The translations under genes were made by a program, and so were the position numbers. Positions 41,315-57,356 of a stretch of 64,000 nt of DNA are shown piece after piece. The stretch is from Candidatus Woesearchaeota archaeon. GTDB lineage: Archaea; Nanobdellota; Nanobdellia; Woesearchaeales; JAZDKJ01. The notes under the pieces were generated by a model. The model was not told where the DNA came from, ran no database searches, and saw nothing but the letters and a program-made list of their open reading frames with translations. The stretch spans positions 468,671-532,670 of the forward strand of contig JAZDKJ010000006.1 in the NCBI GenBank assembly GCA_043803105.1, given 5' to 3'. How positions within the stretch are numbered: the first letter of the stretch is position 1; each line of letters opens with the position of its first letter.

Positions 41315-41326
41315 ATGCGAGGGGAG
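41315..41326. repeat. att-like direct repeat, distal copy
   Basis: ATGCGAGGGGAG, identical to 52660-52671. Confidence 0.6.
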
Positions 41327-41437: not shown

Positions 41438-41457
41438 AGCATTTAGAGGTCAAAAAA

Positions 41458-41889
41458 ATGGTTCTGGAAATAAAAAAAGAGAAACACAAGTTTGAGGCCA
41501 CAATCACCAGGAACGGAACAAGCCTGTGCATCAACATCCCTGCCAGGCTGACAAGAAAGCTGCCCTTAAATGTTGGGGACGACGTTGATATTGAACTGTC
41601 CCGACACTATATTGAATTGCAACAGGACACTTATGACTTCTTGGCTTTGCTCCAGCACAAACCAGAAGTTAAAGGGTATAGTAAGGTTGAACTTTTGTCC
41701 TACATGGTTCTCAAACATGGAGCTGCAAAAGACCACAAGCAATTCTCTGAAGTGCTGGATGGGTTTACTGCAACAGACAAAAAACGCCTGCTGGAACTAG
41801 ACAAATTGCACCTTAACATAGGCTTGACAGAAGTCCCAGAGAAAGCTGAACAGAACACCAAGGCAACACCTGACAAAAAGGAGAGGTGA
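41458..41889 (+). CDS. AbrB/SpoVT-like DNA-binding protein (element regulator candidate)
   Basis: N-terminal NGTSLCINIPARLTRKLPLNVGDDVDIEL resembles a swapped-hairpin barrel. Confidence 0.4.
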   Translation: MVLEIKKEKHKFEATITRNGTSLCINIPARLTRKLPLNVGDDVDIELSRHYIELQQDTYDFLALLQHKPEVKGYSKVELLSYMVLKHGAAKDHKQFSEVLDGFTATDKKRLLELDKLHLNIGLTEVPEKAEQNTKATPDKKER

Positions 41890-42779: not shown

Positions 42780-42968
42780 CCATTTTTGCGATGTCCGATC
42801 AAGAAGCAAAGCGCAGAGTAGCCAAAGCGCGGGACAAGCTCACAACAGAAGAGCAAAATATAATCAAACTCATTGGATGGGCCCCAGAAGAAGAATAGCA
42901 AGAATACAAGGCCTTGCTAACATTAGAACTTGTCAAATAGCAAAATATATTAAGACGTAAACAATTGG

Positions 42969-43373
42969 TTAAGTCATGGAAGTAACAACCAGAAACCAAG
43001 AGCTAACCCTAAAAGTGTTTCTTTTGCTGATTGCAGCACTTGAAGCCACTGGTTGGGGATTGTTTTTGGCCATGAAGTGGTCTATTGAGCTCTGGCTTAA
43101 GTAAGCCAACTCTGCCGGGAAGTCCGGCAATCTTTTCTTCAGTAAACCTTTGTGCAAATTACAATATACAAATCCGTATATTTTTGTTTGGGTTGGATGC
43201 AACGCCAGGAAGTGCCTACAAAACGGCTCTAGTATATCCCAAGGTATACTTTCTAGCCCTTCCAGGTTATACTTTTTGTGCCTGTTTTTCCAAATCCTGA
43301 GCCTTATCGCGCAGTCTGGCCTTAACCTCAGACCTTTGTAGCGTCTGAAAGTAAACTGCCAATTCTTCATCAT
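42969..43373 (-). CDS. Hypothetical protein (start uncertain)
   Basis: Track ORF. Its 5' 107 nt overlap 43267..43551 in another frame, so the real extent is unclear. Confidence 0.3.
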   Translation of the reverse strand: MMKNWQFTFRRYKGLRLRPDCAIRLRIWKNRHKKYNLEGLESIPWDILEPFCRHFLALHPTQTKIYGFVYCNLHKGLLKKRLPDFPAELAYLSQSSIDHFMAKNNPQPVASSAAISKRNTFRVSSWFLVVTSMT

Positions 43374-43551
43374 TCAGGCCAGCATATACCTTTTGAGGAT
43401 TCTTGACAGCAGACAGGGCTAGGGTTATACTGAACTTCAAAGCCTTTGGAAAGTCACCATAGACCCCTGTTATTCCCATCAAAGAGGCCATCTCCTTGAC
43501 AGCAGCCTCTTCTTGCTCATTAAACGATATTGGAATCTTCTTCTGACTCAT
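43267..43551 (-). CDS. Hypothetical small protein, possibly RHH-like
   Basis: KKIPISFNEQEEAAVKEMASLMG has a beta-strand/helix pattern. Confidence 0.4.
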   Translation of the reverse strand: MSQKKIPISFNEQEEAAVKEMASLMGITGVYGDFPKALKFSITLALSAVKNPQKVYAGLNDEELAVYFQTLQRSEVKARLRDKAQDLEKQAQKV

Positions 43552-43563
43552 TGTGTAACCTCA

Positions 43564-43857
43564 TTAAGAATAGTTGAACCTCACGCCCCTCTTTGCCCTT
43601 CTTTCGTAAGTCCTGGCTCTCTTAGGACCCATCTTTCGATAACTGAAATACTTGGCAGTCCTTCTCAGCTTGCCCTTGGTCCTGTGAACTCGCAAGTTAT
43701 CCTTTTGAACATAGCTCTGCAACCTGTGTCTCAAGACTCTGGAACGACCAACATAAACCCTGCGCTTGTGCCGGTCATACAAAGAATACACTCCGGACCT
43801 GTTGGGAATCCTATCAGCTTTCTCCAAATTTCCCCGGGTTAATCGGCGAAGTCTCAT
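43564..43857 (-). CDS. GIY-YIG nuclease-domain protein
   Basis: SGVYSLYDRHKRRVYVGRSRVLRHRLQSY. Confidence 0.65.
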   Translation of the reverse strand: MRLRRLTRGNLEKADRIPNRSGVYSLYDRHKRRVYVGRSRVLRHRLQSYVQKDNLRVHRTKGKLRRTAKYFSYRKMGPKRARTYERRAKRGVRFNYS

Positions 43858-44183
43858 GGAACTAAATTGTGAGGGGGCGAGGTGAGACTTTCCCCCTCAC
43901 CTAAGGCTGGTGATGTTTTAATCTGTTCAGCATGACACACGAAGGTCTTACGGCCTTGGAACACTTTCTTGAGCCGGACTTCCAGGCAGCCAAGGCTTAT
44001 TTCTGGACCTATAAACTGGGCCGGAGAGGACAGGAACAGTTTGTCCGGCAACTCAACAGGATCCTTGGGGTTGCTGATGTCAAAGAGTCGTATCTGAAAA
44101 GCAAAGGCCAGCTTTCTTTTGGTGTCCTGTTCAACCATGGAAGGCCCCTCCGATTTGATGAGATAACCGGATAACACCATCAA
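43854..44183 (-). CDS. Hypothetical protein
   Basis: Overlaps the downstream gene by 4 nt. No motif recognised. Confidence 0.4.
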   Translation of the reverse strand: MMVLSGYLIKSEGPSMVEQDTKRKLAFAFQIRLFDISNPKDPVELPDKLFLSSPAQFIGPEISLGCLEVRLKKVFQGRKTFVCHAEQIKTSPALGEGESLTSPPHNLVP

Positions 44184-44346
44184 CAGTAATCTGCCACAGG
44201 TCAGCAGCCCAACTTACCACCAGTTCAATATACTGGGAATAAACAAAGGGTTGGGTCTCTTTCAAATAAAAGATGTAAAGGACACCAACAATCATACCAA
44301 GGAAAACAAAGAACCAGACCAAATGCTTGTAACGAAAAATTGGCAT
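44131..44346 (-). CDS. Small membrane protein
   Basis: TM helix LVWFFVFLGMIVGVLYIFYL. Confidence 0.35.
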   Translation of the reverse strand: MPIFRYKHLVWFFVFLGMIVGVLYIFYLKETQPFVYSQYIELVVSWAADLWQITVDGVIRLSHQIGGAFHG

Positions 44347-44361
44347 GAAATAGAAGCAAGG

Positions 44362-44619
44362 CTAGTGCTTTATTTGAGTTTGTTTAACAAGATAGGCAAG
44401 CTGCCGTTTAACCGCAACAATATCGGAGTGTAAAGAATCAACCTTCTGATTCAGCTCCTCAAGTTCGACGCGCCTATGGTCTAGCAAATCCCCTGCGCTG
44501 GCGATCAACCACCTTAAGAGGTCTGACTGATTTAAACGCTTAGTCTCTGCTAGTTGCTTGAACGCTTGCAGTTCTCGGTCACGCAATCTGCAAGCAACAA
44601 AGCCATCGTTCAGGCTCAT
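44362..44619 (-). CDS. Small DNA-binding-like protein
   Basis: LQAFKQLAETKRLNQSDLLRWLIASA helical pattern followed by a coiled-coil tail. Confidence 0.4.
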   Translation of the reverse strand: MSLNDGFVACRLRDRELQAFKQLAETKRLNQSDLLRWLIASAGDLLDHRRVELEELNQKVDSLHSDIVAVKRQLAYLVKQTQIKH

Positions 44620-44864
44620 TACTTCAGAATCCCCTTGAGTTTCAATTCGTCTAGCAAAAGCTTCCCGGCCTTGACTAATCGCATCAGCTCTCTAGGCTTG
44701 CACTGGATTGAAGGCTGCTTCCATCGACCCTTCCAGTAGTAGGACTTTGAAAGCTGGCACATCCCCCGGTTCTTCCAGTAGCAGGCTTGAGCATTCTTGA
44801 CCCTATAATCAAAGTCTGGCTTTGTTGTATTAATGTCTTCTTTATTCATTGTGTAACCTCTCAA
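44619..44864 (-). CDS. Hypothetical small protein, first gene after the iteron region
   Basis: Track ORF. Its stop abuts the start of the next gene. Confidence 0.4.
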   Translation of the reverse strand: MRGYTMNKEDINTTKPDFDYRVKNAQACYWKNRGMCQLSKSYYWKGRWKQPSIQCKPRELMRLVKAGKLLLDELKLKGILK

Positions 44865-44869
44865 AGCTA

Positions 44870-44926
44870 ATACGTAATATACGTAAGATACGTAGAGATA
44901 CTTATGGTACGTATTGTCATCGTAAG
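44870..44926. repeat. Iteron-like array of TACGTA-containing 9-10 bp units
   Basis: TACGTA at 44871, 44880, 44889 and 44908. Degenerate copies TACTTA at 44899 and TCGTAA at 44920. Confidence 0.6.
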
Positions 44927-44979
44927 ATTAATGCGGACATAATATATCAAATGCCGTAAGGATTTAAGCATCATTCTTG

Positions 44980-45816
44980 TCAAGAATCCTCATTCTCAGT
45001 GTCATCATCTTCATACAAGTCTTGCTTATCTTTCCCGGCCTTACTATCAATCGGCTTGCTTGTTGAACCTGTGGTATCTGTATCCTGGCTTGAGTTCAGT
45101 TGGTCCAGAGTCTCAAGAACAAAGTCAAGCTTAGAATCAATCTCAGCAGTCTTTATTGTAGCTGAATCAGTAGCAGTCTTCAATGACTGAACCTTGGATT
45201 GTAAAACAGACAGTTGTTCTTGCAGCTTATGAATGTCTGACAGGTCTTCTTTACTCATCGGGAACTCTGTATCATGCCGGACTTCAAACAATGCCTTCAA
45301 GAAAGATTCCTTAGAAGCCTTCTGCAATACCACAGCATCAAGCGCCAGGTTAAGCTTAGATAATAACGGCTTGTCAACACTCAAGCATCTGAGCTTGTCA
45401 CGGACTACGACACTGTGAAGGCAGAGGTCAGGGGTGTTGCGTGTATAAATTTCCAGGTCATCCATTACCTGAATGTTCTTAGTGCCAGGTGGAACCTTGT
45501 TGACTTTCTTATACATCGCTGCAATACTGCCTTCCACTTTCTCCTGGGCATCCTTCTTTAGATGTTCAACCTTCTGCAAAGCTTCAGTCTCAACAGCCTT
45601 GACTCTAGGCTCTATTGCTTTCAAGGCTTGAGCTGCAGCATCCTTTGATAGGTTGGTCAAGGTCCGGTCTTGTTGCTGGAGATCAACCTTCAAGTTGTAG
45701 ATGGCATCAGCACATCCTTTTCTCAAGCTGTCAATACTCTTCTCTGTTGCTAACATTCTTTGGCTCAAGGTCTGCATCCCAAGGTCCAAGTCTTCCATCT
45801 TAGTTTTACCAAACAT
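44980..45816 (-). CDS. Coiled-coil protein with acidic C-terminal tail
   Basis: Start taken at ATG 45816, just after the upstream stop. C-terminus DLYEDDDTENEDS. Confidence 0.45.
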   Translation of the reverse strand: MFGKTKMEDLDLGMQTLSQRMLATEKSIDSLRKGCADAIYNLKVDLQQQDRTLTNLSKDAAAQALKAIEPRVKAVETEALQKVEHLKKDAQEKVEGSIAAMYKKVNKVPPGTKNIQVMDDLEIYTRNTPDLCLHSVVVRDKLRCLSVDKPLLSKLNLALDAVVLQKASKESFLKALFEVRHDTEFPMSKEDLSDIHKLQEQLSVLQSKVQSLKTATDSATIKTAEIDSKLDFVLETLDQLNSSQDTDTTGSTSKPIDSKAGKDKQDLYEDDDTENEDS

Positions 45817-45817
45817 T

Positions 45818-46033
45818 TCAATCGCCTCCTGGTGCTCCACGTTGAAAAGGAACAATGACTGGCTTGACCTTCTTGTCACATCTGGGACAGAACCATAAGC
45901 CGTCCTTAGTACCGACATAATCGTCTCGAATATAATCTGACCTCAGAAAGAAACCACAAGTCGGACAACTAACTGAGACTTTAACAAAAATGTTATTGTG
46001 TGTTTCTTTATAGTACATAGTCTTGCACCTCAC
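45818..46033 (-). CDS. Zinc-ribbon protein
   Basis: CPTCGFF...CPRCDKK. Confidence 0.5.
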   Translation of the reverse strand: MRCKTMYYKETHNNIFVKVSVSCPTCGFFLRSDYIRDDYVGTKDGLWFCPRCDKKVKPVIVPFQRGAPGGD

Positions 46034-46248
46034 TTCTTAACAGCACTTGGGCTGTCACCACTCCCTAACTTTATTGCAGCCCAAAAACAAACAACACAAA
46101 CAACTACGCTGCCTAAGAAGAGTTGAAAGAAAATATGCCACAAATCGCCGAAAAAGACTGAAGCAATCGCAACAATCAAACTGCCAAAGGCAACTACCCA
46201 CAACAAGGTCCTACCGGTGTTAGATTCGCTAGGCTTACTTGGGTTCAT
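46030..46248 (-). CDS. Small two-TM membrane protein
   Basis: LLWVVAFGSLIVAIASVFF and FLGSVVVCVVCFWAAI. Confidence 0.45.
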   Translation of the reverse strand: MNPSKPSESNTGRTLLWVVAFGSLIVAIASVFFGDLWHIFFQLFLGSVVVCVVCFWAAIKLGSGDSPSAVKK

Positions 46249-46378
46249 TGTCCTTGACCTCTTCTTCTGTGGGCTTCATGCTCTCAGCCTCTTCCAAAAT
46301 GCTGACTCCTTTCTTTGAGCGCTTCCAAAACTTCCCTTGCACCTTTGCCTTGATGTCTTGCCATAGTCTCATAGTCAA

Positions 46379-46618
46379 TCACCTTTGTTGATTGTTAAAT
46401 TCCAGTACTTCGTTGTTAGCCTTCAAGTTCTGCCTGACAATAAAGTCCAAAAGCCTCTTCCGAGTCACATTACATTTACAACAAACGTGAAAGAAGATGA
46501 TTCCCTGACTTGACTCTTCCAGCCGGTAGGTCATGCCTTCCTGCTTCGGACAAGAAGGTTTGCCACAAAAAACACAGTAACAAAAGTTTTGAGAGCAAGA
46601 CATCAGACAACACCCCAC
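46379..46618 (-). CDS. Cys-rich zinc-finger-like protein
   Basis: CSQNFCYCVFCGKPSCP...HVCCKCNV. Confidence 0.45.
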   Translation of the reverse strand: MGCCLMSCSQNFCYCVFCGKPSCPKQEGMTYRLEESSQGIIFFHVCCKCNVTRKRLLDFIVRQNLKANNEVLEFNNQQR

Positions 46619-49011
46619 TTATCAAAAGAACCCTTATTGAACACAACCCCTAAAGTGCGCATCCGTTCAAGACGTTCAACAATCAGCTTCTCATCACAAC
46701 CTCTAGACTTGGCAAACATTATAATGGCCTGAGTTAGAACGCCATCACCCTTGTCCCTCTCCTTAATAAAAGTCTTAACATCCTGGTCTGTAATCTCAGA
46801 GATAAGCCCTAGGCGTTTCTTGATTCTGTCATCAAAAATAATTCCCATGATTGGATACTTGTAATTGGGAAGCCGGACATTAAGGATGGTATCTCCTTCA
46901 ATAAAACCCAAGTCTAACAGCAACGCATGGAAGCGAGAGGAGCCAATGGTCATAATATTCAGGCTCTTCAAGAACATAATGTACTCCTCATACATTTTGT
47001 TTTTGGGGTAAGCAAAAGCTCCAGGGTGAATCCCATCAAGACCCTTCTTAAATTCACCCTGGTCTGAATGGTTCTCATAAACGTCAACAAGCTTGCGCTG
47101 CAAAGCTTCCAAGTAATAATCACTGCTAACAGATTCGTTTGCTTGCTTTGCAACCATCAAAGAATTAAGCTGAGACAGTCGGATGCCAACCAACTTGGAA
47201 ACACACAAGGCAGTATAGGCCATCTCATTATTTCGGCCTGCCAACTTTCTAAGGAGATTTATGTCATCTTCTGGAAATTGGCTCGTAAGCTTGTCAAATA
47301 ATGCTTGACGTTGGTCCATGGGGGTACCCCTACAGCTCACTACACCACTACAGGTTACTACAGGCAGCCATGCTTGTTTTTCCTCAAAAACACGCTGAAG
47401 ATTCTCTAAAGCCCAAAACCACATCTCATCTGCCAAAGGCTTAATGATTTGGTGCTTAACAGTGTTAATCACCGGCAAACGCGAGTCTGTAGTAACACTA
47501 GCATGAATAAAAAAAGTTCTCTGATTCAAAGCATCTTCTGTCAAGCTCCTGATGCTATAGCCATGAGGTCCAGCCACATCGTAAGCCTTTGGAGTGTGAT
47601 TCTTACCTTCGCAACGCACATAAGGATTGCCACGCCTCTGACCTTTACGCAAAATTGAGACTACCTCTTGCTCCCCATGCTCTCCTATCTTCTGGTCCAA
47701 CTCATCCACTAGCAAGCTCAAAGAATGGTCTTCGCACATCCTGGCCAAAGCAGCCGCGCTCACATCACCACCCATAAAACCATGATAAGCCAAAAACGAA
47801 AGGATCTCCAAGAGGGTAGTCTTACCACTTCCCCTTGTTGCATCCACACCAAGATAAAAAAAAGAATCCAAGACAGGAGCAATATACGTCTGACCAACAT
47901 ACAACTGACACATAGACAAATCCTGAACATCATTAAAATCATAAAGAAGAGAGATAACTCTAGCCACATCTTCCAAAATCGCGGACAAAGGTCTGATGGT
48001 CAATTTTCCATCAAGCCACTCCTGCACCCTTTCCATAGAAGGCACATTATACGGAGCTTTCTGAGGAGCATGAGAAAATAGATATTTCTGACCCTCCCAC
48101 TCAAAAAAATGATTTACAAACTTACTCTCCTCATCCTTCTCAGACTTAACCAAAAAAAGACACTTCTTGCCACCAATGACACCAGCAAACATGCGCGGAC
48201 TAACTTGACCAACACAAAGCTGAGACGTCGGGTCGAAATAACCCCAGCTCTTTATATTGTAGTGAGATGTAGTAATGTAGTGACTTGTAGTAGTAGTTGG
48301 ATGGACAATACTCTCGTTTTTGCTTTGAGCTTTTGAATATGTCTTTTCGCGGTAGGCAGGTGGCGCGCTTGCCCACTTGGCAAAAGCCTGCATAGCTTCA
48401 AACACTTCTTCTTTGGTCTTGCCTGCTTTGATCAGCTTGCAGACTTCGGCGAACTCTCTGCCTGAACGGCTTTTGTCTGCGGACTTTGGCTCTTCCTGAT
48501 TCGCTTCTGTTGAGGTTGCATCATCCTTTATGTATGGCTTAATCAGGTTTTTAAGATACTCCTCACTGTATTCCATGATGAAGGCACCATTAACAACCTC
48601 GTAAGTCTTTCCCTTCGCTTCTGGTCTTTTTGGGTCATCATAAGAAGAGCCAGGACCTACAACCTGATAATTATTAGCCCTCAGTTCACCTACACCTGGC
48701 AAAACATGGTTTTTGCTGTACGGACAAATGAAATAGAAATGTCTGCCTTGGCTGCCAGGACTTTTGACTGTGAATGTTTCAAGCTGGAATTTGTCAAGCA
48801 CTTCCAGATGGTCCACATCAAGGATTCTTAGATTACCATAGCCACCAATAACTCCGTAATTGCCACCAGCAGCTATCCATTCAACTAATTTTTTGTCATC
48901 ATACCTGTACCCCTTCTTTTGCCATTCGGATTCAAAAGGTCTTTTGCCCTTGAGGAGAACAAATCTGAACTCTGGCTTTTGGAGTTGTGTAGGGATGTTC
49001 ATTGCTGGCAC
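46603..49011 (-). CDS. Replication protein: prim-pol (AEP) domain fused to a P-loop helicase-like domain
   Basis: N-terminal bifunctional primase-polymerase pattern (GNYGVIGGYGNLRILDVDH, SPGSQGRHFYF). Central Walker A GVDATRGSGKTTLLE and Walker B-like LLVDELD. Confidence 0.85.
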   Translation of the reverse strand: MPAMNIPTQLQKPEFRFVLLKGKRPFESEWQKKGYRYDDKKLVEWIAAGGNYGVIGGYGNLRILDVDHLEVLDKFQLETFTVKSPGSQGRHFYFICPYSKNHVLPGVGELRANNYQVVGPGSSYDDPKRPEAKGKTYEVVNGAFIMEYSEEYLKNLIKPYIKDDATSTEANQEEPKSADKSRSGREFAEVCKLIKAGKTKEEVFEAMQAFAKWASAPPAYREKTYSKAQSKNESIVHPTTTTSHYITTSHYNIKSWGYFDPTSQLCVGQVSPRMFAGVIGGKKCLFLVKSEKDEESKFVNHFFEWEGQKYLFSHAPQKAPYNVPSMERVQEWLDGKLTIRPLSAILEDVARVISLLYDFNDVQDLSMCQLYVGQTYIAPVLDSFFYLGVDATRGSGKTTLLEILSFLAYHGFMGGDVSAAALARMCEDHSLSLLVDELDQKIGEHGEQEVVSILRKGQRRGNPYVRCEGKNHTPKAYDVAGPHGYSIRSLTEDALNQRTFFIHASVTTDSRLPVINTVKHQIIKPLADEMWFWALENLQRVFEEKQAWLPVVTCSGVVSCRGTPMDQRQALFDKLTSQFPEDDINLLRKLAGRNNEMAYTALCVSKLVGIRLSQLNSLMVAKQANESVSSDYYLEALQRKLVDVYENHSDQGEFKKGLDGIHPGAFAYPKNKMYEEYIMFLKSLNIMTIGSSRFHALLLDLGFIEGDTILNVRLPNYKYPIMGIIFDDRIKKRLGLISEITDQDVKTFIKERDKGDGVLTQAIIMFAKSRGCDEKLIVERLERMRTLGVVFNKGSFDKWGVV

Positions 49012-49208
49012 CCGATCTTTTGCATTTTGCCTTGGTCAATTTTATATTCCTGATCATCGACTAAGAATGAGACTTGGCAACTTCCATCATTCCATAAAAT
49101 TAATTTGATAGTGAAGGCGCGTTTATACTTAACAGCTAATTCTGCCTGTAATTGCCGTAGTGCAATATTGAGGCAAAAAGGCACGAAGAGGGGATTTGTA
49201 TCATTCAT
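48999..49208 (-). CDS. Hypothetical small protein
   Basis: Track ORF overlapping both neighbours. Confidence 0.35.
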   Translation of the reverse strand: MNDTNPLFVPFCLNIALRQLQAELAVKYKRAFTIKLILWNDGSCQVSFLVDDQEYKIDQGKMQKIGCQQ

Positions 49209-49402
49209 TTTTTCCCCTCTGGCGCGCTCAAATCTGTGATTTTTACTATCGCCCTTTTGCCAATAATAATATAATGCTCTTCGCCATCGATAGGCTGGAC
49301 AGTCATGGTAAAATCGTCATCTTCGATGATAACGCCTCTTAGAACTTTTGTGACTCCTTGGTCCTCGAAGACAATCTTTTTCAATCCTTCATCCCATTTC
49401 AT
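49205..49402 (-). CDS. Hypothetical small protein
   Basis: Track ORF, beta-rich sequence. Confidence 0.35.
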   Translation of the reverse strand: MKWDEGLKKIVFEDQGVTKVLRGVIIEDDDFTMTVQPIDGEEHYIIIGKRAIVKITDLSAPEGKK

Positions 49403-49457
49403 TCATTAAACCTCAGTTTCCCGACGCCTGCAAACGCGCCTGGATAGCCCTTCTTAA

Positions 49458-49589
49458 TTACTTCACACGATTTCGGCTGTGGGTCTGCTCCCAATAGGCT
49501 TTCCTACAGCTTTCATCACAAAACTTGCTGTTTGTGCGCTTCCATGCCGGAATAGCCTTCTCACAGTGAACGCAATGGCCATCATTCAT
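49458..49589 (-). CDS. Small zinc-binding protein, 43 aa
   Basis: Below the track threshold. MNDGHCVHCEKAIPAWKRTNSKFCDESCRKAYWEQTHSRNRVK (CxxC...CxxxC). Overlaps the upstream small ORF by 8 nt. Confidence 0.35.
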   Translation of the reverse strand: MNDGHCVHCEKAIPAWKRTNSKFCDESCRKAYWEQTHSRNRVK

Positions 49590-49713
49590 GCTTGGCCTTA
49601 TCCTTGCGGAGTATCTTCAAAGCCTCGTCAATATCTTTGGCTCCGAGTTCTCGCACAATGTCTTCTGCCATTCTGGTAATCTTTTGCTGAAAGTCTAAGT
49701 TGGAAGCAGTCAT
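49582..49713 (-). CDS. Small hypothetical protein, 43 aa
   Basis: Below the track threshold. MTASNLDFQQKITRMAEDIVRELGAKDIDEALKILRKDKAKHE. Confidence 0.3.
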   Translation of the reverse strand: MTASNLDFQQKITRMAEDIVRELGAKDIDEALKILRKDKAKHE

Positions 49714-49723
49714 AGTGTCTTTC

Positions 49724-49867
49724 TCATATTGCCTTGATTTTTTCCATAGCAGCAAGCCTTACGAAGCTACTTTTGCTGAGTTGTAGGCTTTGTGCTGCTT
49801 TTTCTATTGCCTGCATGAATTCCTCATTGACTTCCATAGTGAAAATCTTCTTATCTTTTCTTGGCAT
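49724..49867 (-). CDS. Ribbon-helix-helix (CopG/Arc-like) protein
   Basis: MPRKDKKIFTMEVNEEFMQAIEKAAQSLQLSKSSFVRLAAMEKI. The track ORF start at 49948 is an upstream extension. Confidence 0.5.
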   Translation of the reverse strand: MPRKDKKIFTMEVNEEFMQAIEKAAQSLQLSKSSFVRLAAMEKIKAI

Positions 49868-49921
49868 ACTAGAGTAGTATACAGTAAAATTTATATAGTA
49901 TTCGTACATATTGTACCTAAA

Positions 49922-51289
49922 ATGCCAAGAAAAATTACAATTGAACAAGTGAATAATAAGATAGCAAAGTTGATTGCCAAACGAGAAATGTTAGAAAGGA
50001 AAGAAGATAAAGAAACTTATGATATTGATTTTACAAGCACCAAACAGCAATATCCAATATATCAACAACTTAAGCATGGGTATAGGGGTGACATTGGTAG
50101 GCTACTCTATTACCATATGTTGAATCCGAAATCACGTGCTGATAAATTTGTTAAGGATAAGAAAAAATTGAGTCCTAACTCTGACCCAAAAAAGGCCCAA
50201 AACTTGGCTGCCAAAATTAGAGTTTATACATTAACACTTGAAAATGATTACAGATTAATCTCGAGGACAGGCACAAGGGGAAAAATTGTTCAAGTGAACT
50301 ATCAACGAATCCTAGAAGAGCTCTTTGAGAAGCTTGCACTTTCAAGGCGCAAAAATAAGGAAAATGGAGAACATAACAAAGTAGTTCTTACGTTTATGGA
50401 ATATCTCATCGACCGATATGGCGCAGAACCTTTCTTAATTCAATTTAGCACAAAACAAAAGCGAGCAAAGCTAAAACACCTTTTCAGCACAATGAGGGGA
50501 GAAGTGGATGACGACGAATCTCAAGAAGCGAAGGGAAGAGAACAAGAAATAAAAATTCTCCGTTTTCATGTAGTCTCAGAATTATTGGAAAACTATTACA
50601 AGAGTATCCAGATAGCAAGACAAATTCACGATGGATTCTTCCGATTTGACAGTCCACAATTAATAGATACTATGGGTGCTGAACTAGAAATGTTTGACAA
50701 AGACTTAGATATTTTTTATCATTATTTTGTAGCCAAAGGAAAAAGGGACCTTGGTCAGGCTATTATGCGAAAACTTACTTTTGGTCCAAAAGGTGAGAGG
50801 AAACATTTGGACTTGTTGGAGGTTTTTCAAAAGTGGGAGTTCTCTTGTAAGGGTTTCCTTCAGAATTTATCGAATAACAATGAGAGAGTTCTATTTCTGC
50901 TTTCAGTATTTCCCTTCCCAATACCTTTTTATGATATTAGAACAAAGGATGTTTATTGTGTTGACCCAACCAAGGAAGAAGTTGAATCCTGCCAAAAGGT
51001 CTTTTCTAAATTATTTGAGAGATTCTTCGACTTTTACAAGTTACGAAAAATTAACCAGTCAGACTATAAGAAAGATTATATGATTGAAGAAAATCATTTT
51101 AAGTTGCTCCAAAAAGAGTTCAACTTTCTGCGCATCAGAAGGCAGTCGCTTCTAAAACAAAATAAATATCTAGAGTTGTTGTTCTTAAACCATGATGTTG
51201 TGGATAAGCTTTTGTTGAAGATAAAAACTGAGACGGAAGATTACCTGGAGCATGTTGAGGACATAGCTACAGTGTATAAAACAAAATGA
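49922..51289 (+). CDS. Hypothetical 455 aa protein, AT-rich cargo gene of the element
   Basis: ATG 49922 is preceded by the palindrome GTACATATTGTAC. No motif recognised. Visibly lower GC than the rest of the element. Confidence 0.5.
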   Translation: MPRKITIEQVNNKIAKLIAKREMLERKEDKETYDIDFTSTKQQYPIYQQLKHGYRGDIGRLLYYHMLNPKSRADKFVKDKKKLSPNSDPKKAQNLAAKIRVYTLTLENDYRLISRTGTRGKIVQVNYQRILEELFEKLALSRRKNKENGEHNKVVLTFMEYLIDRYGAEPFLIQFSTKQKRAKLKHLFSTMRGEVDDDESQEAKGREQEIKILRFHVVSELLENYYKSIQIARQIHDGFFRFDSPQLIDTMGAELEMFDKDLDIFYHYFVAKGKRDLGQAIMRKLTFGPKGERKHLDLLEVFQKWEFSCKGFLQNLSNNNERVLFLLSVFPFPIPFYDIRTKDVYCVDPTKEEVESCQKVFSKLFERFFDFYKLRKINQSDYKKDYMIEENHFKLLQKEFNFLRIRRQSLLKQNKYLELLFLNHDVVDKLLLKIKTETEDYLEHVEDIATVYKTK

Positions 51290-51290
51290 A

Positions 51291-52586
51291 CTAGAATTTG
51301 ATTCCTTTTGCCCTGAATACCAATTCTATCTTTTTCTGGAAGTCGCTGAAATCCCCTTGCATCTGGTCTATCTTCTGCTGTTGCAGCTTGCTTTCTTCTT
51401 CCTTGGCCTTGATCTCCGCCTCAATTACTTGGTGGTCAAGTGGCCTTTTGCACTTGTCACAAATGCTCTCAGCTAACCCATTCAAAGCCCCACAGAACAC
51501 ACAAGGTTTGGTTGTTGGCTCAAACTCTTTGTGGTTCGCATCTGCTTTGATTATTCCGCGCTTTATGAGGTCTATCTTGAAGCTTTCTTCTTGCGTTGAT
51601 AGGTCGTAGGTTTTTAGTTGTTTTGTGCTGGTCCATCTTGCTGTGTGCTGTATGTCTAGGTCGCTTGCGCCTCTGAGTCGCATGATGGTCACTCCGTTGC
51701 GCTTGAGGGAGTACAGGGTTATGGGTTTTTTGATTCCGAGTTGCTTGCATCTTTCTCTGATGAGTTTGTTGGCTGCTGTAGGAGTCATTTGGCAGTGCCT
51801 GTTGGTTCTGCCTGTGTTCACGAATAGGTAAGCGTTCTTGTCTTTTCTGTTAGGGTGCTCATTAATCCATTTGGCAAGGTAGAAGTAGCTGTCAATGATT
51901 CTTAGAAAGCCTGTGCCTTCTTTTCCGTGTTCTGTAACCCATAGCTTTGCATAGTTCTCGTGGAGCTCAACATCTTTTATCTTTCGGCCTAGTAATTCTT
52001 GAGGTCTGCCAAGGCTCTCAAGCATCACAGTCAGTAGGCACTGCATCCTTGAGTCATCCGCGAAAGCTTGAACTAACTGCTCGAATTCGTCTAGCTCGAA
52101 TTTGTCTCCGCGCAGTTTCTCTTTTGATTTGTCGATTTTGCCGTTAAGGTGTCGGACCACGTAAGGCGTTATTGTGTCATCGATTCTGCCTCTCTCATCT
52201 TTTTCGGGGAAAAGTTGTTTCCAGAGAAATTTGAGGTCCAGGCTAAAATCTCTTTTCGACTTCATGCTTTTGTTGACTGTGTGCGCAAAGGTCATTACTT
52301 TATCAATGTCTTTTCTGTCGTCAATGCTTGCAAGGTCTTTGTCTGTTACATGGCATACTATCAAGAAGGTTCTGAATAGTCGTAAGCGTCTGATAAAGCT
52401 GATGTCTCTGGCTGAGAATATTTTAGCTAGTTCGAGAAAGTGCTTTTTGTTTTCTTTGTTTTTTATCCAGTACTTGCGTCTTACTTCGTCACGATTTGAG
52501 AAGTCTGGTTTTCTGCAATAGATGTCTAGTTTAGAAAGGAATGTCTCGTATCGTTTTTGGTTGTTGTAGATGTCGTTATCGGCCAT
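51291..52586 (-). CDS. Tyrosine integrase with C-terminal zinc ribbon and coiled coil
   Basis: MLESLGRPQELLG (Arg), LYSLKRNGVT, DIQHTARWTSTKQLKTY (His...Tyr), CVFCGALNGLAESICDKCKRPL. Adjacent to the tRNA 3' end. Confidence 0.8.
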   Translation of the reverse strand: MADNDIYNNQKRYETFLSKLDIYCRKPDFSNRDEVRRKYWIKNKENKKHFLELAKIFSARDISFIRRLRLFRTFLIVCHVTDKDLASIDDRKDIDKVMTFAHTVNKSMKSKRDFSLDLKFLWKQLFPEKDERGRIDDTITPYVVRHLNGKIDKSKEKLRGDKFELDEFEQLVQAFADDSRMQCLLTVMLESLGRPQELLGRKIKDVELHENYAKLWVTEHGKEGTGFLRIIDSYFYLAKWINEHPNRKDKNAYLFVNTGRTNRHCQMTPTAANKLIRERCKQLGIKKPITLYSLKRNGVTIMRLRGASDLDIQHTARWTSTKQLKTYDLSTQEESFKIDLIKRGIIKADANHKEFEPTTKPCVFCGALNGLAESICDKCKRPLDHQVIEAEIKAKEEESKLQQQKIDQMQGDFSDFQKKIELVFRAKGIKF

Positions 52587-52659
52587 ATTCTGTTTGCTCG
52601 TCGATAACTAGCATAAGAATTACAAGTATATAAATGTTTCGCATTAAACCATAAGGATA

Positions 52660-52671
52660 ATGCGAGGGGAG
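52660..52671. repeat. att-like direct repeat, tRNA-proximal copy
   Basis: ATGCGAGGGGAG is the complement of CTCCCCTCGCAT, the acceptor 3' strand and discriminator of tRNA-Leu. Confidence 0.6.
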
Positions 52672-52942
52672 GGATTTTCGATGCTGTTAGGAACGTCTTT
52701 TGGCATTAGCCAAAAGTTTTTCCCAGGTTCGCTTACCGAACTTAAGGTTCGGTGGCGTGCCAGAAAACCTTTGGTTTTCTGAGCATTTTCCTATTGAAAA
52801 AAGCTGTTTCGAACCCTCGGACCCACTAAGGGACAGGATATCATAGATCATTCCCTTAAGTCCTGCGCATTTGGTCTGAACCGCAGGTTCTGACGCTTTG
52901 AAAACCTATGGTTTTCATTTGACCAGGCTCTGCCACCCTCGC
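52661..52942 (-). tRNA. tRNA-Leu(UAA), class II, with three putative introns
   Basis: Hand-folded. Acceptor GCGAGGG/CCCUCGC plus A73, D-stem GCA/UGC, anticodon stem CAGGA/UCCUG, loop CUUAAGA. Variable arm UCCCUUAGUGGGUCC, T-arm GAGGG-UUCGAAU-CCCUC. 86 nt remain after removing ~48, 15 and ~133 nt insertions. Confidence 0.65.
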
Positions 52943-52967: not shown

Positions 52968-52975
52968 TTTAAAAA
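52968..52975 (-). promoter_or_regulatory. TATA box for tRNA-Leu
   Basis: TTTTTAAA on the minus strand, 25 nt upstream of G1. Confidence 0.5.
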
Positions 52976-53192: not shown

Positions 53193-53864
53193 ATGGAATG
53201 GTATAGCAATCTTGTCTTCTTTAGGAAAAGGAAAATACTCCAAAGGTACAGAGAGTTATTTGACAAAATAAACAAGGTTTACCTCCGTGCAGAGGGTATA
53301 CCGCTGTCACCTGTCCCTTCGGAAGCTTATGATCAACTGGTGGTTTATGTTGACTCTGCCTTAGAAACCAAAAAAATGCGACTCCGTGCAAGCGACCTTG
53401 AGGATACGATCTCAAATGTTGCAAAGCATTGTTCGGCTGCGCTTGCAGGTTTTGAATCAGGTTCTCCAATAAAGTATCTTTCAAGTTACTCCGGGAGTAT
53501 CTCTGCCCTTGCCTATCAGCTGCACGAATGGCTTCCAAACCTAAGACACAAAGATGCCTTGTCTTTGTCAAAAAAAGCAGAGGAAACTGTAAAAACTACC
53601 ATGGCTGACTTGCTTGAGCACCTTGCCAAGGTTCCTGAAGAATATACTGAAAGTTCCTTTCATCAGCTTACACAATTTCAGAACCTTGTAAATGCCTTAG
53701 GCCCTGTGGCAATGATAGACCTAACTTATGAAGGTCATAGAAACAGTTTTAAGGAGATTCTAGAACGCAAAATTGACAAATATCTCAAGGAACAAACAGG
53801 CTTGGGGCCTGAAACCAAGAACGATTATCGAGTAATTTCACTTGGAGAAACAGGTGCACAATGA
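53193..53864 (+). CDS. Hypothetical protein
   Basis: TATA-like GTTTATATAC lies ~39 nt upstream. Overlaps the next gene by 4 nt. Confidence 0.45.
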   Translation: MEWYSNLVFFRKRKILQRYRELFDKINKVYLRAEGIPLSPVPSEAYDQLVVYVDSALETKKMRLRASDLEDTISNVAKHCSAALAGFESGSPIKYLSSYSGSISALAYQLHEWLPNLRHKDALSLSKKAEETVKTTMADLLEHLAKVPEEYTESSFHQLTQFQNLVNALGPVAMIDLTYEGHRNSFKEILERKIDKYLKEQTGLGPETKNDYRVISLGETGAQ

Positions 53865-55111
53865 GTCAACCTTATAGGCCTGATTTTGACAGGCTTCCAA
53901 TTAAATCTGAAAAAAACGGTTTTATATCTAACTACAAAAGGCCTTTGACGGTTACAGCAATTTGTGCTGCCTTTATCACAGCTGCAGGTGTTTATTACCT
54001 CAGTCAACCTAAAGCAATAAAGGTTGCTGCCACAGATGGATTGGCATCAATATCCAAACCTTCTTTGCAGCCAGAAACCACACCTAAAATCTCGCTTCCT
54101 CAAATGTCTTTTAATGAACTGGCTAAGCAGCCAAGTATTGAAGAACCTTATTCTCTTTCCTTTGCTCCCGAAGGTACTTCGGCAAAACTCGGTCCTTTCA
54201 ACCAGTCAAGCTTCTTTCCTGTCTACAAAGAGGGTGGCAAATATATTGTCTTAACTCCCAAGGTATTGAAGAAAGATGATGGCAATACATACATGACTAT
54301 TGATACAAACATTGCGAACCTTGCTCAAAAATATGACTTCCAGGCCATCGGAATAAACCTAAAGGTAGGTAAAGAAATTGTAGCCCAAAACATCAATGAA
54401 GTTGGAAAACCAATATCTTTCAAGGTCTCCGGCAAGTTGGAAGAAGCCTTAAAATCAAACAAGAAAATAAATTTCCAAGTTATGGCTCTGCGCAAAGTTG
54501 GGTCCACAAGGCATTATCATATTGTTGCTTCATATGCCAATGGTGTTCTGGATGGCTCTGCCCCAAAGGGCTTGGAATCCATTACATCAAGCCTTTATGA
54601 ATCTGGGCTTAAGGTCAAGGCCTCCTTAGGAAAGTCTGGGGCTTATGATCGAATACCTACTCTTATTGAGCAGTATGTGGGTGAAAAAAACACAGATAAT
54701 GCATCCATCCAACCTCCTACACTTGCGCGGTGGGAAAAAGACTTCAAACAGAAGGTCTTTCAGGCCGCGGACCTATACAAGAGCGCTCTTTCAAGGGGTT
54801 TTGGCCATTCCAAGAGCCTTGAGCATGTTATCGAGCATTCTGACCTTCCTGGCCTTGACACAAAGCAAGATGCTTACGAGGCAGTATACCTGGCAAGGAA
54901 TTTTGGTCATGAGGCAGTAATTGGCAGGTGGAATTCCAAGCTATTTGTCGGCCCAGAAATTTCTAATTACGTTAAAGGCCTGAAATATGCCACAAATCAA
55001 GCAGGAAAGCGTATTTTCACAAACAAAGACATTTTGGAGCATGTTGCTGAAAAGTACGGGCATTCAATGAGCAATAGCACGCTAAAAAAATATCTAACCA
55101 TGGCTTGCTGA
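53861..55111 (+). CDS. Hypothetical membrane-anchored/secreted protein
   Basis: N-terminal TM helix LTVTAICAAFITAAGVYYL. No motif recognised. Confidence 0.45.
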   Translation: MSQPYRPDFDRLPIKSEKNGFISNYKRPLTVTAICAAFITAAGVYYLSQPKAIKVAATDGLASISKPSLQPETTPKISLPQMSFNELAKQPSIEEPYSLSFAPEGTSAKLGPFNQSSFFPVYKEGGKYIVLTPKVLKKDDGNTYMTIDTNIANLAQKYDFQAIGINLKVGKEIVAQNINEVGKPISFKVSGKLEEALKSNKKINFQVMALRKVGSTRHYHIVASYANGVLDGSAPKGLESITSSLYESGLKVKASLGKSGAYDRIPTLIEQYVGEKNTDNASIQPPTLARWEKDFKQKVFQAADLYKSALSRGFGHSKSLEHVIEHSDLPGLDTKQDAYEAVYLARNFGHEAVIGRWNSKLFVGPEISNYVKGLKYATNQAGKRIFTNKDILEHVAEKYGHSMSNSTLKKYLTMAC

Positions 55112-55166: not shown

Positions 55167-55346
55167 ATGAAGAAAACGCCTGTTTCAAAGAAAACAGAGA
55201 AGCCAAAGGTTGCCTTTAAGCGTTTCAGGTGTGAAATGTGCGGCGCCACCTCAGATAAGCCTGGGGAGCACTGCGGTTATCCAATGGTTGACTTGCTGAG
55301 TACCGGTTGCATGGGCTGTCAGGGCTGCGGCATGCACGTTAAGTAA
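55167..55346 (+). CDS. Small Cys-rich protein, 59 aa
   Basis: Below the track threshold. MKKTPVSKKTEKPKVAFKRFRCEMCGATSDKPGEHCGYPMVDLLSTGCMGCQGCGMHVK. TATA-like CTTTATAAAT lies ~22 nt upstream. Confidence 0.45.
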   Translation: MKKTPVSKKTEKPKVAFKRFRCEMCGATSDKPGEHCGYPMVDLLSTGCMGCQGCGMHVK

Positions 55347-56984: not shown

Positions 56985-57356
56985 ATGAGCGACATAGCAG
57001 ATAGTTTCCTATCATTTTTCACCGGTACCAAAGAAGAGCTGTTGCAGAATTTTGAAGTGAAAGTTACGTTCACTTGCGGCCTTGTTGAATTGTGCCTTGC
57101 TGTGTCTGGATTTGCAGGTGAAGAGCTAAGCACGTATCTATTTGTTGACAACCATATTCGTCTCTTAAGAACATTTGGTTCTGCAGCAAAAAACTTCATG
57201 AAACTTGGAAAATTCTATGACTGTAGCTTGGTTCAGCCGGGTCTAGTCGGCACTATAAGGGAGATAACAACATATCTAACCGAGGACACGCAATATCAGC
57301 CAGCTGTTCAACCGACTTCTTTCACTTCTGGTTTAACTTTGGACCGCATTGAATAA
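56985..57356 (+). CDS. Hypothetical 123 aa protein upstream of the GTPase-like gene
   Basis: TATA-like TCTTTAAATATT lies upstream. No motif recognised. Confidence 0.4.
   Translation: MSDIADSFLSFFTGTKEELLQNFEVKVTFTCGLVELCLAVSGFAGEELSTYLFVDNHIRLLRTFGSAAKNFMKLGKFYDCSLVQPGLVGTIREITTYLTEDTQYQPAVQPTSFTSGLTLDRIE

What the first reader, a model, noticed from the sequence alone, without database searches (positions are those of the whole stretch)
52661..52942. tRNA-Leu(UAA) gene apparently interrupted by three introns (D-loop, anticodon loop, T-loop)
On the minus strand, GCGAGGG starts at 52942 and its complement CCCUCGC-A ends at 52661, 282 nt apart.

An 86-nt class II cloverleaf appears only after three insertions are removed:
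- about 48 nt after GGUCAAAUG in the D-loop; the boundary is ambiguous because CAAAUG is repeated;
- 15 nt (GGAAUGAUCUAUGAU) at the canonical 37/38 site;
- about 133 nt inside the T-loop, between GGGUUCGAA and UCCCUC.

The remaining sequence has all expected arms, anticodon UAA, a 15-nt variable arm, discriminator A73 and a TATA box 25 nt upstream.

Multi-intron tRNAs are known in some archaeal lineages, but a 133-nt T-loop intron combined with a D-loop intron is unusual. The alternative is that the T-loop insertion is a scar or miniature insertion and the gene is inactive.
Basis: partly seen in the sequence, partly recalled or inferred. Interest (0 to 1): 0.7.

Follow-up and report, generated by a model that had tools for sequence, protein, structure and literature searches.

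The report
Three-intron leucine tRNA gene, DPANN archaeon
This is a real, apparently working archaeal leucine-tRNA gene cut into four pieces by three introns; it is a good example of something already known from tiny "DPANN" and other archaea, not a new kind of gene.

Summary
On the minus strand, 52942 to 52661 is a 282-nt gene. Removing 48 nt (D-loop, 21/22), 15 nt (37/38) and 133 nt (T-loop, 59/60) leaves an 86-nt class II tRNA-Leu(UAA), which ARAGORN accepts. The unspliced gene is missed by ARAGORN and Rfam.

- **Splice motifs:** within each boundary ambiguity, only one register gives a bulge-helix-bulge motif. The D-loop is GGUC/GACC, type HBh'. The T-loop is UUCG/CGAA plus the T-stem, type hBH.
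- **Orthologs:** two syntenic or orthologous loci (L121, L122) keep D- and T-loop introns at the same sites. Their exons are 82/86 (L122) and about 85/86 (L121) identical. The helix-forming intron ends and the TATA box are conserved, while intron interiors are about 40-75% identical with large indels. The anticodon intron is 15 nt here, 44 nt in L122 and absent in L121.
- **Wider survey:** among 120 DPANN tRNA-Leu loci, 15 have the same D-loop intron site, 12 have T-loop introns (up to an apparent 248 nt), and one has introns at all three sites.
- **Literature:** up to three introns per archaeal tRNA and hBH introns at 59/60 in Micrarchaeota are already described.

Verdict: a new member of a known kind. 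Two extras: the T-loop intron holds a copy of the D-loop intron's two-hairpin core, and an integrase/PrimPol element probably sits at the tRNA's 3' end.

The parts
52968..52975 (-). TATA box TTTTTAAA, 25 nt upstream of tRNA position 1
   Evidence: Read directly. An equivalent TTTTTAAA or TTTATAAA lies 24-25 nt upstream in orthologs L122 and L121, although the spacer sequence has diverged.
52919..52942 (-). Exon 1: acceptor 5' strand, D-stem 5' strand and D-loop up to A21 (GCGAGGGTGGCAGAGCCTGGTCAA)
   Evidence: GGUC at 52924-52921 is the exon strand of the D-loop splice helix.
52871..52918 (-). Intron 1, 48 nt, D-loop (21/22), relaxed HBh' motif. It contains two hairpins, GAAAACC-AUA-GGUUUUC and GAACC-UGC-GGUUC. 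Its 3' end, GACC (52876-52873), pairs with exon GGUC.
   Evidence: Only register p=24 of the 7 possible gives H 4/4 and h' 4/4, with AA^A bulges on both sides. H pair probability is 0.79 in an unconstrained fold. The GAC(C/U)AA end is conserved in L121 and L122. The same site has a 4/4 helix in 14 of 15 other DPANN loci (3/4 in L087).
52855..52870 (-). Exon 2: D-stem 3' strand, anticodon stem 5' strand, loop with anticodon UAA up to G37
52840..52854 (-). Intron 2, 15 nt (GGAAUGAUCUAUGAU), canonical 37/38 site
   Evidence: The boundary is unique. The anticodon stem gives h 6/6, H is 3/4 (U33-U mismatch), and h' is 2 bp. The intron is absent in ortholog L121 and is a different 44-nt sequence at the same site in L122. 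Thermodynamic folding alone does not predict the helix.
52808..52839 (-). Exon 3: A38, anticodon stem 3' strand, 15-nt variable region, T-stem 5' strand, T-loop U54-A59
   Evidence: UUCG at 52813-52810 is the exon strand of the T-loop splice helix.
52675..52807 (-). Intron 3, 133 nt, T-loop (59/60), relaxed hBH motif. It is predicted to fold into four hairpins. Its 3' end, CGAA (52680-52677), pairs with U54-G57.
   Evidence: Register p=135 of 3 possible gives H 4/4 plus a 5-bp T-stem as h. H pair probability is 0.9-0.99 and the 3' bulge is unpaired. The UCGAAA end is invariant in L121 and L122, whose introns are 138 nt and 56 nt.
52738..52779 (-). Module inside intron 3 that copies the core of intron 1 (52878-52916): the same two hairpins in the same order
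   Evidence: Local alignment score 36 against a shuffle mean of 18.2 (z 4.9, 0 of 500 shuffles). The motifs GAAAACCANAGGTTTTC and GAACCNNNNGTTC occur in both introns; the first occurs nowhere else in the 64 kb and the second has one further match at 57169-57181. The module is missing from the 56-nt L122 intron.
52661..52674 (-). Exon 4: U60, T-stem 3' strand, acceptor 3' strand, discriminator A73. CCA is not encoded.
51291..52586 (-). Tyrosine recombinase (integrase) gene directly 3' of the tRNA; the start of a probable integrated element
   Evidence: Pfam Phage_integrase 3e-12; PHROG integrase 2.4e-16. Ortholog L122 has no integrase or PrimPol next to its tRNA.
41315..41326 (-). Candidate attR: a 12-nt copy (CTCCCCTCGCAT) of the tRNA 3' end (52671-52660) in the same orientation. 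It would bound an element of about 11.3 kb.
   Evidence: It is the only other match with 3 or fewer mismatches to the 15-mer 3' end on either strand of the window. A second integrase (41886-42779, +) lies next to it and a PrimPol gene lies at 46603-49011. The repeat is short, so this part is only probable.

Best explanation
This is a functional chromosomal gene for tRNA-Leu(UAA) in a DPANN archaeon, most likely of the Woesearchaeota/Nanoarchaeota type.

**How it works.** A TATA-box promoter drives transcription of a 282-nt precursor. The archaeal splicing endonuclease (EndA) recognises bulge-helix-bulge structures formed between exon and intron sequence. It cuts in the 3-nt bulges on either side of a 4-bp helix, and an RNA ligase joins the exons.

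**The three introns.**
- 48 nt at 21/22 in the D-loop: helix GGUC/GACC with AA^A bulges, type HBh'.
- 15 nt at the canonical 37/38 site.
- 133 nt at 59/60 in the T-loop: helix UUCG/CGAA stacked on the T-stem, type hBH.

The product is an 86-nt class II tRNA, to which CCA is added afterwards.

**Shown here:** the cloverleaf after excision, the BHB registers, conservation in orthologs, and recurrence of the same sites in other DPANN genomes.

**Inferred:** that splicing actually happens, and that the host EndA has the broad specificity needed for HBh' and hBH motifs.

**Intron turnover.** The introns evolve fast. The anticodon intron was gained, lost or replaced among close relatives. The T-loop intron grew from a form of about 56 nt by taking up a copy of the D-loop intron's two-hairpin core.
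For: - **Excision restores a tRNA:** removing the three inserts gives a full-length tRNA-Leu(taa) with all arms.
- **Independent search agrees:** an exhaustive search over BHB-compatible excisions recovers the same three introns.
- **One register per junction:** within each boundary ambiguity, exactly one register gives a BHB motif. Only 32 of about 35,000 site pairs meet that criterion.
- **Folding:** the unconstrained fold contains both splice helices, with probabilities 0.79 and 0.9-0.99. Precursor z-score is -6.7.
- **Orthologs:** L122 is syntenic (CopA 69%, HD protein 54% identity). L121 shares a neighbouring gene. Both carry D- and T-loop introns at the same sites. Exons are 82/86 identical in L122 and differ at one position in L121 by direct reading. 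Intron interiors are about 40-75% identical with large indels. GAC(C/U)AA, UCGAAA and the TATA box are conserved.
- **Other DPANN genes:** the same D-loop site with AA^A bulges occurs in 15 other tRNA-Leu genes (4/4 helix in 14, 3/4 in L087). T-loop introns occur in 12, and all three sites are occupied in L056.
- **The tRNA is needed:** UUA makes up 15% of leucine codons in 21 long ORFs.
- **Literature:** up to three introns per archaeal tRNA gene; a 59/60 hBH intron in ARMAN-2 is cleaved in vitro by epsilon2 EndA (PMC3239211). A D-loop 20b/21 HBh' intron is known, and DPANN EndAs with the L3 loop are associated with disrupted tRNAs (PMC5829648).
Against: - There are no RNA data, so splicing is inferred.
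- No EndA gene was looked for or found in the 64 kb.
- The rest of the genome cannot be checked for a second, intact tRNA-Leu(UAA).
- The T-loop sequence UUCGAA is a palindrome. A simple direct repeat of TCGAAA at the two junctions would therefore also produce the central helix, which weakens the single-sequence argument for that junction. The ortholog conservation is what rescues it.
- The anticodon-intron helix has a U-U mismatch and is not predicted by free-energy folding.
- In L121 the D-loop helix has a pair probability of only 0.09.
- Only three orthologs were found, so there is conservation but no true covariation test. The exon strands of the helices are invariant.
Confidence: 0.86

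Rival explanations
1. The gene is dead. The 133-nt T-loop insert (and perhaps the D-loop insert) is a scar of a miniature insertion or of a mobile-element integration. It is not spliced, and another gene supplies tRNA-Leu(UAA).
For: - A 6-nt direct repeat (TCGAAA) flanks the T-loop insert and CAAATG flanks the D-loop insert, which resembles target-site duplication.
- An integrase gene lies 75 nt downstream of the tRNA.
- No h' helix forms on the intron side of the T-loop junction.
Against: - The insert sits at the same site in three diverged genomes. Its interior has diverged strongly, yet the junction nucleotides are conserved.
- Exons are 95-99% identical and the promoter is conserved.
- There are no terminal inverted repeats.
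- The direct repeats are what a BHB with AAA bulges on a palindromic T-loop would produce anyway.
- The insert shows no similarity to the ends of the neighbouring element.
- No other copy of the insert's motifs occurs in the 64 kb, apart from one unrelated match to GAACCNNNNGTTC at 57169-57181.
Confidence: 0.05
2. The T-loop intron is spliced today, but it began as the remnant of an integrative element that recombined at the tRNA 3' end. The 59/60 site is the left edge of the att core. After decay of the element, the leftover sequence happened to form a BHB with the palindromic T-loop.
For: - Direct repeats of tRNA-Leu 3' ends, starting at about position 59/60, lie 81-3048 nt downstream of intron-free genes in L050, L116 and L119, with a shorter 11-nt one in L100.
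- L121 has a 27-nt repeat that begins 1 nt before the 3' exon.
- The window has a 12-nt repeat inside the 3' exon, with integrases at both ends of the enclosed 11.3 kb.
- The idea is already in the literature (discussed in PMC3239211 and PMC4033280).
Against: - There is no significant similarity between the intron and either end of the resident element (z 0.5 and -0.1).
- The D-loop intron cannot be explained this way, yet it shares a module with the T-loop intron.
- The coincidence of boundaries may simply reflect that att cores cover the T-stem 3' strand and the acceptor 3' strand.
Confidence: 0.07
3. One or more inserts are self-splicing (group I or II) introns, or they host a functional small RNA, such as a C/D box guide RNA like the tRNA-Trp intron of Euryarchaeota.
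For: The T-loop intron is long and strongly structured, with four predicted hairpins.
Against: - There is no Rfam hit at gathering threshold or at E<=1 anywhere in the locus.
- 133 nt is far below the size of group I or II introns.
- No box C (RUGAUGA) or box D (CUGA) pair is seen on reading.
- The interior is poorly conserved between orthologs.
Confidence: 0.02

Closest known systems
Multi-intron tRNA genes of Archaea spliced at bulge-helix-bulge motifs (Thermoproteales: Sugahara 2008, Fujishima 2010, as summarised in PMC4033280 and PMC8450103)
   Same: - Up to three introns per gene, at non-canonical sites as well as at 37/38.
- Relaxed HBh' and hBH motifs.
- Related intron sequences at different sites, interpreted as intron transposition.
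- Standard tRNA finders miss these genes.
   Different: - The host is a DPANN archaeon with about 40% GC, not a hyperthermophilic crenarchaeon.
- Here the related intron sequences sit in two introns of the same gene, one nested inside the other intron's interior.
Disrupted tRNAs of Candidatus Micrarchaeum (ARMAN-2) and the epsilon2 EndA (PMC3239211)
   Same: - A DPANN host.
- An hBH-type intron at exactly 59/60 in the T-loop, with experimental cleavage of such a substrate (pre-tRNA-Cys).
- A high load of non-canonical introns.
   Different: - The ARMAN-2 59/60 intron is 13 nt; this one is 133 nt.
- The present organism groups with Woesearchaeota-type sequences, whose EndA is reported as alpha4 with an L3 loop (PMC5829648), not epsilon2.
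- The EndA of this genome was not seen.
Methanopyrus kandleri pre-tRNA-Glu(UUC) with a D-loop 20b/21 HBh' intron plus a canonical intron (PMC5829648)
   Same: - A D-loop intron at essentially the same place.
- An HBh' motif without an exon-side outer helix.
- It is combined with a 37/38 intron.
   Different: - A different tRNA and a different lineage.
- The M. kandleri enzyme cleaves that intron poorly in vitro.
- Here the site is widespread across DPANN tRNA-Leu genes (15 of 120 loci).
L056 tRNA-Leu(GAG) of an uncultured archaeon MAG (CAZHYZ010000001.1), found here
   Same: Introns at the same three positions (mature index 24, 40, 72), with GGUC/GACC and AA^A bulges at the D-loop site.
   Different: - A different isoacceptor.
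- The introns are much shorter (18, 19 and 42 nt).
- It is not annotated or published as far as I could tell.

Membership tests
Archaeal EndA-spliced (BHB) tRNA introns | Removing the insert restores a canonical cloverleaf with conserved tertiary nucleotides | tested here: met
   ARAGORN calls the 86-nt spliced sequence tRNA-Leu(taa) over positions 1-86. U8, A14, G18G19, U33, GUUCGAAU and A73 are present.
Archaeal EndA-spliced (BHB) tRNA introns | Both splice sites lie in about 3-nt bulges separated by a 4-bp helix, with at least one flanking helix (hBHBh', HBh' or hBH) | tested here: met
   - D-loop: H 4/4, h' 4/4, bulges AA^A / AA^A.
- Anticodon: h 6/6, H 3/4, h' 2.
- T-loop: h 5/5, H 4/4, bulges AA^A / AA^U.

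The same holds in L121 and L122. The helices appear in unconstrained folds for the D- and T-loop introns but not for the anticodon intron.
Archaeal EndA-spliced (BHB) tRNA introns | Intron nucleotides that form the motif are under selection: conserved or covarying while the rest drifts | tested here: met
   Invariant intron columns in three orthologs include G67 A68 C69 A71 A72 (with exon A73 completing the 3' bulge) and T262-A267 at the intron 3' ends. There is one G-C to G-U change in L122 (GACU). Interiors are about 40-75% identical. Covariation proper cannot be tested because the exon strands are invariant.
Archaeal EndA-spliced (BHB) tRNA introns | The host encodes a splicing endonuclease able to cut relaxed motifs at non-canonical sites | not testable with these tools
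   Only 64 kb of a contig of about 543 kb is available. No EndA was sought or seen. The literature says DPANN EndAs with the L3 loop, or of the epsilon2 type, go with disrupted tRNAs (PMC5829648, PMC3239211).
Archaeal EndA-spliced (BHB) tRNA introns | The spliced mature tRNA, or circular introns, are detected in RNA | not testable with these tools
   No transcriptome data are available.
Class II tRNA-Leu, isoacceptor UAA | Long variable arm, anticodon UAA, discriminator A73, archaeal Leu-type D-arm | tested here: met
   The mature sequence is 84/86 identical to the tRNA-Leu(UAA) of Woesearchaeota MAG locus L095.
Miniature transposon or insertion scar | Terminal inverted repeats, target-site duplication, other copies in the genome, and presence/absence polymorphism of the whole insert between relatives | tested here: not met
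   There are no terminal inverted repeats on reading. The hairpin motifs are confined to the two introns, apart from one unrelated match to GAACCNNNNGTTC at 57169-57181. The insert is present at the same site in all three orthologs. The 6-nt direct repeats are accounted for by the BHB geometry.
Self-splicing group I/II introns or known intron-borne small RNAs | Match to the corresponding covariance models, or box C/D motifs | tested here: not met
   No Rfam family matched at gathering score, or at E<=1, in 52661-52942.
tRNA gene used as attachment site by an integrative element | Integrase next to the tRNA 3' end and a direct repeat of the tRNA 3' part at the far end of the element | tested here: inconclusive
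   Integrases lie at 51291-52586 and 41886-42779, and PrimPol at 46603-49011. The direct repeat is only 12 nt, or 13 of 15. The syntenic L122 lacks the element, but its flanks do not allow exact mapping of the boundary.

The most novel reading that the evidence does not exclude
The introns of this gene are still moving, and they interact with integrating elements.

- The T-loop intron has taken up a copy of the D-loop intron's two-hairpin core. This would be intron-into-intron transposition within one gene.
- The anticodon intron has been gained, lost or replaced since the split from L121 and L122.
- The 59/60 intron site coincides with the left edge of the att core that integrative elements use in this tRNA-Leu family.

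Either T-loop introns are seeded by decayed integrations, or they confine the usable att site to the 14-nt 3' exon. If so, this locus would be a live test case for where archaeal non-canonical tRNA introns come from, and for the idea that gene disruption and element integration shape each other.
Probability: 0.2. Interest if true: 0.55.

Novelty: new member of a known kind. Interest (0 to 1): 0.3.

Why it matters
- **Annotation:** standard tools (ARAGORN, Rfam tRNA model) report no tRNA anywhere in this 64-kb window or in the orthologous loci. Genomes of this lineage would therefore appear to lack tRNA-Leu(UAA), although UUA is 15% of leucine codons. Such hidden genes matter for completeness estimates and for claims of missing tRNAs in DPANN archaea.
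- **Intron evolution:** the three orthologs give a small, clean picture of rapid intron turnover (length 28-48, 0-44 and 56-138 nt at the three sites) around fixed splice helices. They also give an example of sequence sharing between two introns of one gene.

None of this changes current understanding. It extends documented behaviour to a Woesearchaeota-type lineage.

Tried and rejected
- **Standard detection:** ARAGORN on the window and on the unspliced gene, and Rfam at gathering and at E<=1, found nothing. That is expected for a gene disrupted this way.
- **Crude spliced alignment:** a dynamic-programming alignment with wildcard stems misplaced and merged introns. A first exhaustive BHB search timed out. 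It was replaced by a pruned search plus ARAGORN. Some multi-intron solutions for other loci are artefacts of my scoring, so only sites 24, 40 and 69-73 are used.
- **Nested intron:** I looked for a BHB around the 56-nt extra module inside the T-loop intron. No strict motif exists.
- **Intron derived from the neighbouring element:** no significant similarity to either element end.
- **More orthologs:** the HD-domain neighbour gave only L122. The 59-aa Cys-rich neighbour gave only itself. CopA relatives (L123-L126) carry no tRNA-Leu nearby. The metagenome pattern scan gave a single locus, L121.
- **Integrase relatives in IMG/VR:** none found.
- **C/D box guide RNA in the introns:** no box pair was seen and there was no Rfam hit.

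Full report
**1. The observation**

The minus strand from 52942 to 52661 reads GCGAGGG…CCCTCGCA and is 282 nt long. It contains three inserts:
- 48 nt in the D-loop, with CAAATG repeated at both junctions;
- the 15-mer GGAATGATCTATGAT after G37;
- 133 nt between GGGTTCGAA and TCCCTC.

With these cut out, the remaining 86 nt are called tRNA-Leu(taa) by ARAGORN over their full length. The product has a 7-bp acceptor stem, a D-arm, the anticodon loop CUUAAGA, a 15-nt variable region, the T-arm GAGGG-UUCGAAU-CCCUC and A73.

The unspliced gene is invisible to ARAGORN. It is also invisible to all Rfam models, at gathering score and at E<=1. TTTTTAAA lies 25 nt upstream of position 1. All part coordinates were re-derived and checked.

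**2. Are the junctions splice sites?**

Archaeal tRNA introns are cut in two 3-nt bulges that flank a 4-bp helix. I scored every register allowed by the boundary ambiguities.

- **D-loop:** 1 of 7 registers works. The layout is GGUC | AA^A | UGAA … UUCA | GACC | AA^A. The central helix is 4/4 and the intron-side helix is 4/4, with no exon-side helix. This is an HBh' motif between A21 and A22.
- **T-loop:** 1 of 3 registers works. The 5-bp T-stem continues into UUCG/CGAA (4/4), with bulges AA^A and AA^U. This is an hBH motif at 59/60.
- **Anticodon loop:** the boundary is unique. The anticodon stem (6/6) is followed by a 3/4 helix with a U33-U mismatch and a 2-bp hairpin.

Only 32 of about 35,000 site pairs in the precursor reach "4/4 plus a flanking helix of 4 or more", and the D-loop and T-loop pairs are among them.

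A blind search over all combinations of one to three BHB-compatible excisions was filtered by ARAGORN.

Unconstrained folding places both non-canonical helices in the minimum-energy structure, with pair probabilities of 0.79 and 0.9-0.99. It does not predict the weak anticodon-intron helix.

One caveat applies. UUCGAA is a palindrome, so a plain TCGAAA direct repeat would also create the T-loop helix. The single sequence is therefore not decisive for that junction.

**3. Orthologs settle it**

A pattern search of metagenomes found L121. A homolog of the neighbouring HD-domain protein led to L122.

L122 is syntenic with the window: CopA is 69% identical and the HD protein 54%. L121 shares the upstream small Cys-rich ORF.

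| Locus | D-loop intron | Anticodon intron | T-loop intron |
|---|---|---|---|
| Window | 48 nt | 15 nt | 133 nt |
| L121 | 39 nt | none | 138 nt |
| L122 | 28 nt | 44 nt (unrelated sequence) | 56 nt |

The introns in L121 and L122 sit at the same sites as in the window. The 138-nt figure uses the corrected L121 T-loop boundary applied.

- **Exons** are 82/86 identical in L122. By direct reading, L121 differs from the window at a single T-stem position (C65 to U, giving a G-U pair). One search printed a lower figure for L121 because of a boundary error in my script, which I corrected by reading the sequence.
- **Intron interiors** are about 40-75% identical, with large indels.
- **Intron 3' ends that pair with the exons** are conserved: GAC(C/U)AA and UCGAAA(A/G). 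One change is G-C to G-U.
- **The TATA box** is kept 24-25 nt upstream in all three loci, over a diverged spacer.

This is the pattern expected of a working gene with fast-evolving introns, not of a scar. UUA is 15% of leucine codons in 21 long ORFs of the window, so the tRNA is needed.

**4. How unusual is it?**

The 5' exon 21-mer hit at least 120 genome contigs. Almost all are DPANN: Micrarchaeota, Woesearchaeota and Nanoarchaeota. Parsing them gave the following.
- 61 genes are intron-free.
- At least 23 have a 37/38 intron.
- 15 have a D-loop intron at the identical position, always with AA^A bulges. The helix is 4/4 in 14 of them and 3/4 in L087. The intron strand reads GACC, GGCC, GACU, GGCU or GAUU, and lengths are 18-99 nt.
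- 12 have T-loop introns at mature index 69-73. Lengths are 13-144 nt, plus an apparent 248 nt in L087.
- Six combine D-loop and T-loop introns.
- L056 has introns at all three sites (18, 19 and 42 nt).

The nearest mature sequences are Woesearchaeota tRNA-Leu(UAA) genes. L095 is 84/86 identical and has only a canonical intron. CopA homologs are almost all labelled Woesearchaeota or Nanoarchaeota.

The literature already states the following.
- Archaeal tRNA genes carry up to three introns at many positions (PMC3239211, PMC4033280, PMC8450103).
- ARMAN-2 has 56% disrupted tRNAs, including an hBH intron at 59/60 that its EndA cleaves in vitro (PMC3239211).
- A D-loop 20b/21 HBh' intron exists in M. 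kandleri, and DPANN EndAs with an extra loop go with tRNA disruption (PMC5829648).
- Similar introns at different sites in Thermoproteales were read as intron transposition (PMC4033280).

The finding is therefore a new member of a known kind.

**5. What is a little more interesting**

*Shared module between two introns.* Compared with the 56-nt L122 intron, the window's T-loop intron carries two additions: an extra 56-nt block and a 20-nt hairpin. The 56-nt block holds the same two hairpins, in the same order, as the window's own D-loop intron. These are GAAAACC-ANA-GGUUUUC and GAACC-N4-GUUC. The local alignment gives z 4.9, with 0 of 500 shuffles reaching the score. The first motif occurs nowhere else in the 64 kb and the second has one unrelated extra match at 57169-57181. 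No BHB surrounds the block, so it is a sequence duplication between introns, not a nested intron.

*A probable integrated element.* An integrase gene follows the tRNA directly. About 11.3 kb further on there is the only other near-copy of the tRNA 3' end (12 nt exact, same orientation). A second integrase lies beside it and a PrimPol gene lies in between. L122 has none of these genes.

L121 has a 27-nt duplication of its 3' exon plus flank. Several intron-free relatives have repeats of 11-16 nt of the tRNA 3' end, most of them starting at about position 59/60. So elements of this kind probably target the last 12-16 nt of this tRNA family, which is the part that forms the 3' exon here.

I found no sequence link between the intron and the element ends. 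Any causal connection is therefore speculation.

**6. Limits**

- There are no RNA data.
- No EndA was seen in the window.
- The rest of the genome is not available to count tRNA-Leu(UAA) genes.
- Only three orthologs were found, so the evidence is conservation, not covariation.
- The att assignment rests on a short repeat.

Noticed in passing
window 41315-52660 (integrases 51291-52586 minus and 41886-42779 plus; PrimPol 46603-49011 minus): This is a probable integrated plasmid or virus-like element of about 11.3 kb at the 3' end of the tRNA. It is bounded by a 12-nt direct repeat, CTCCCCTCGCAT. It is absent from the syntenic locus L122, and no relatives of the integrase were found in IMG/VR.
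   Followed up: partly
L121 2083-2109 and 2163-2189: A 27-nt direct repeat, GTCCCTTCCCTCGCATTATTTTTCTTT, covers the 3' exon of the orthologous tRNA plus 12 nt of flank. The two copies are separated by only 53 nt. By eye, those 53 nt resemble the integrase-proximal flank in the window. This looks like the remnant of an excised or decayed element.
   Followed up: partly
L050, L100, L116, L119 (downstream of their tRNA-Leu genes): Direct repeats of the last 11-16 nt of intron-free tRNA-Leu genes lie 81-3048 nt downstream, most of them beginning at about T-loop position 59/60. That is the same point where the T-loop intron sits in the window.
   Followed up: no
window 53193-55111 (+): Two ORFs (223 and 416 aa) have no Pfam, NCBIfam or PHROG match. 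They lie between the tRNA and the conserved small Cys-rich ORF (55167-55346). Both are absent from the corresponding positions in L121 and L122, so this may be a second insertion, upstream of the tRNA.
   Followed up: no
window 55167-55346 (+): A 59-aa Cys-rich (zinc-ribbon-like) protein is conserved next to the tRNA in L121 and L122. It has no other homolog in the 5.8-billion-protein collection.
   Followed up: partly
window 23604-23660 (-): A weak Rfam match to a C/D box snoRNA model (SNORD50: 29 bits, E 0.083, below gathering). It has UGAUGA and CUGA boxes but lies inside a 211-aa ORF, so it is probably chance.
   Followed up: partly
L087 and L111 (Micrarchaeota tRNA-Leu(GAG)): These have apparent T-loop introns of 248 nt and 144 nt, combined with D-loop introns of 55 and 53 nt. 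Both T-loop introns are longer than the one in the window. The boundaries come from my automated parse only.
   Followed up: no
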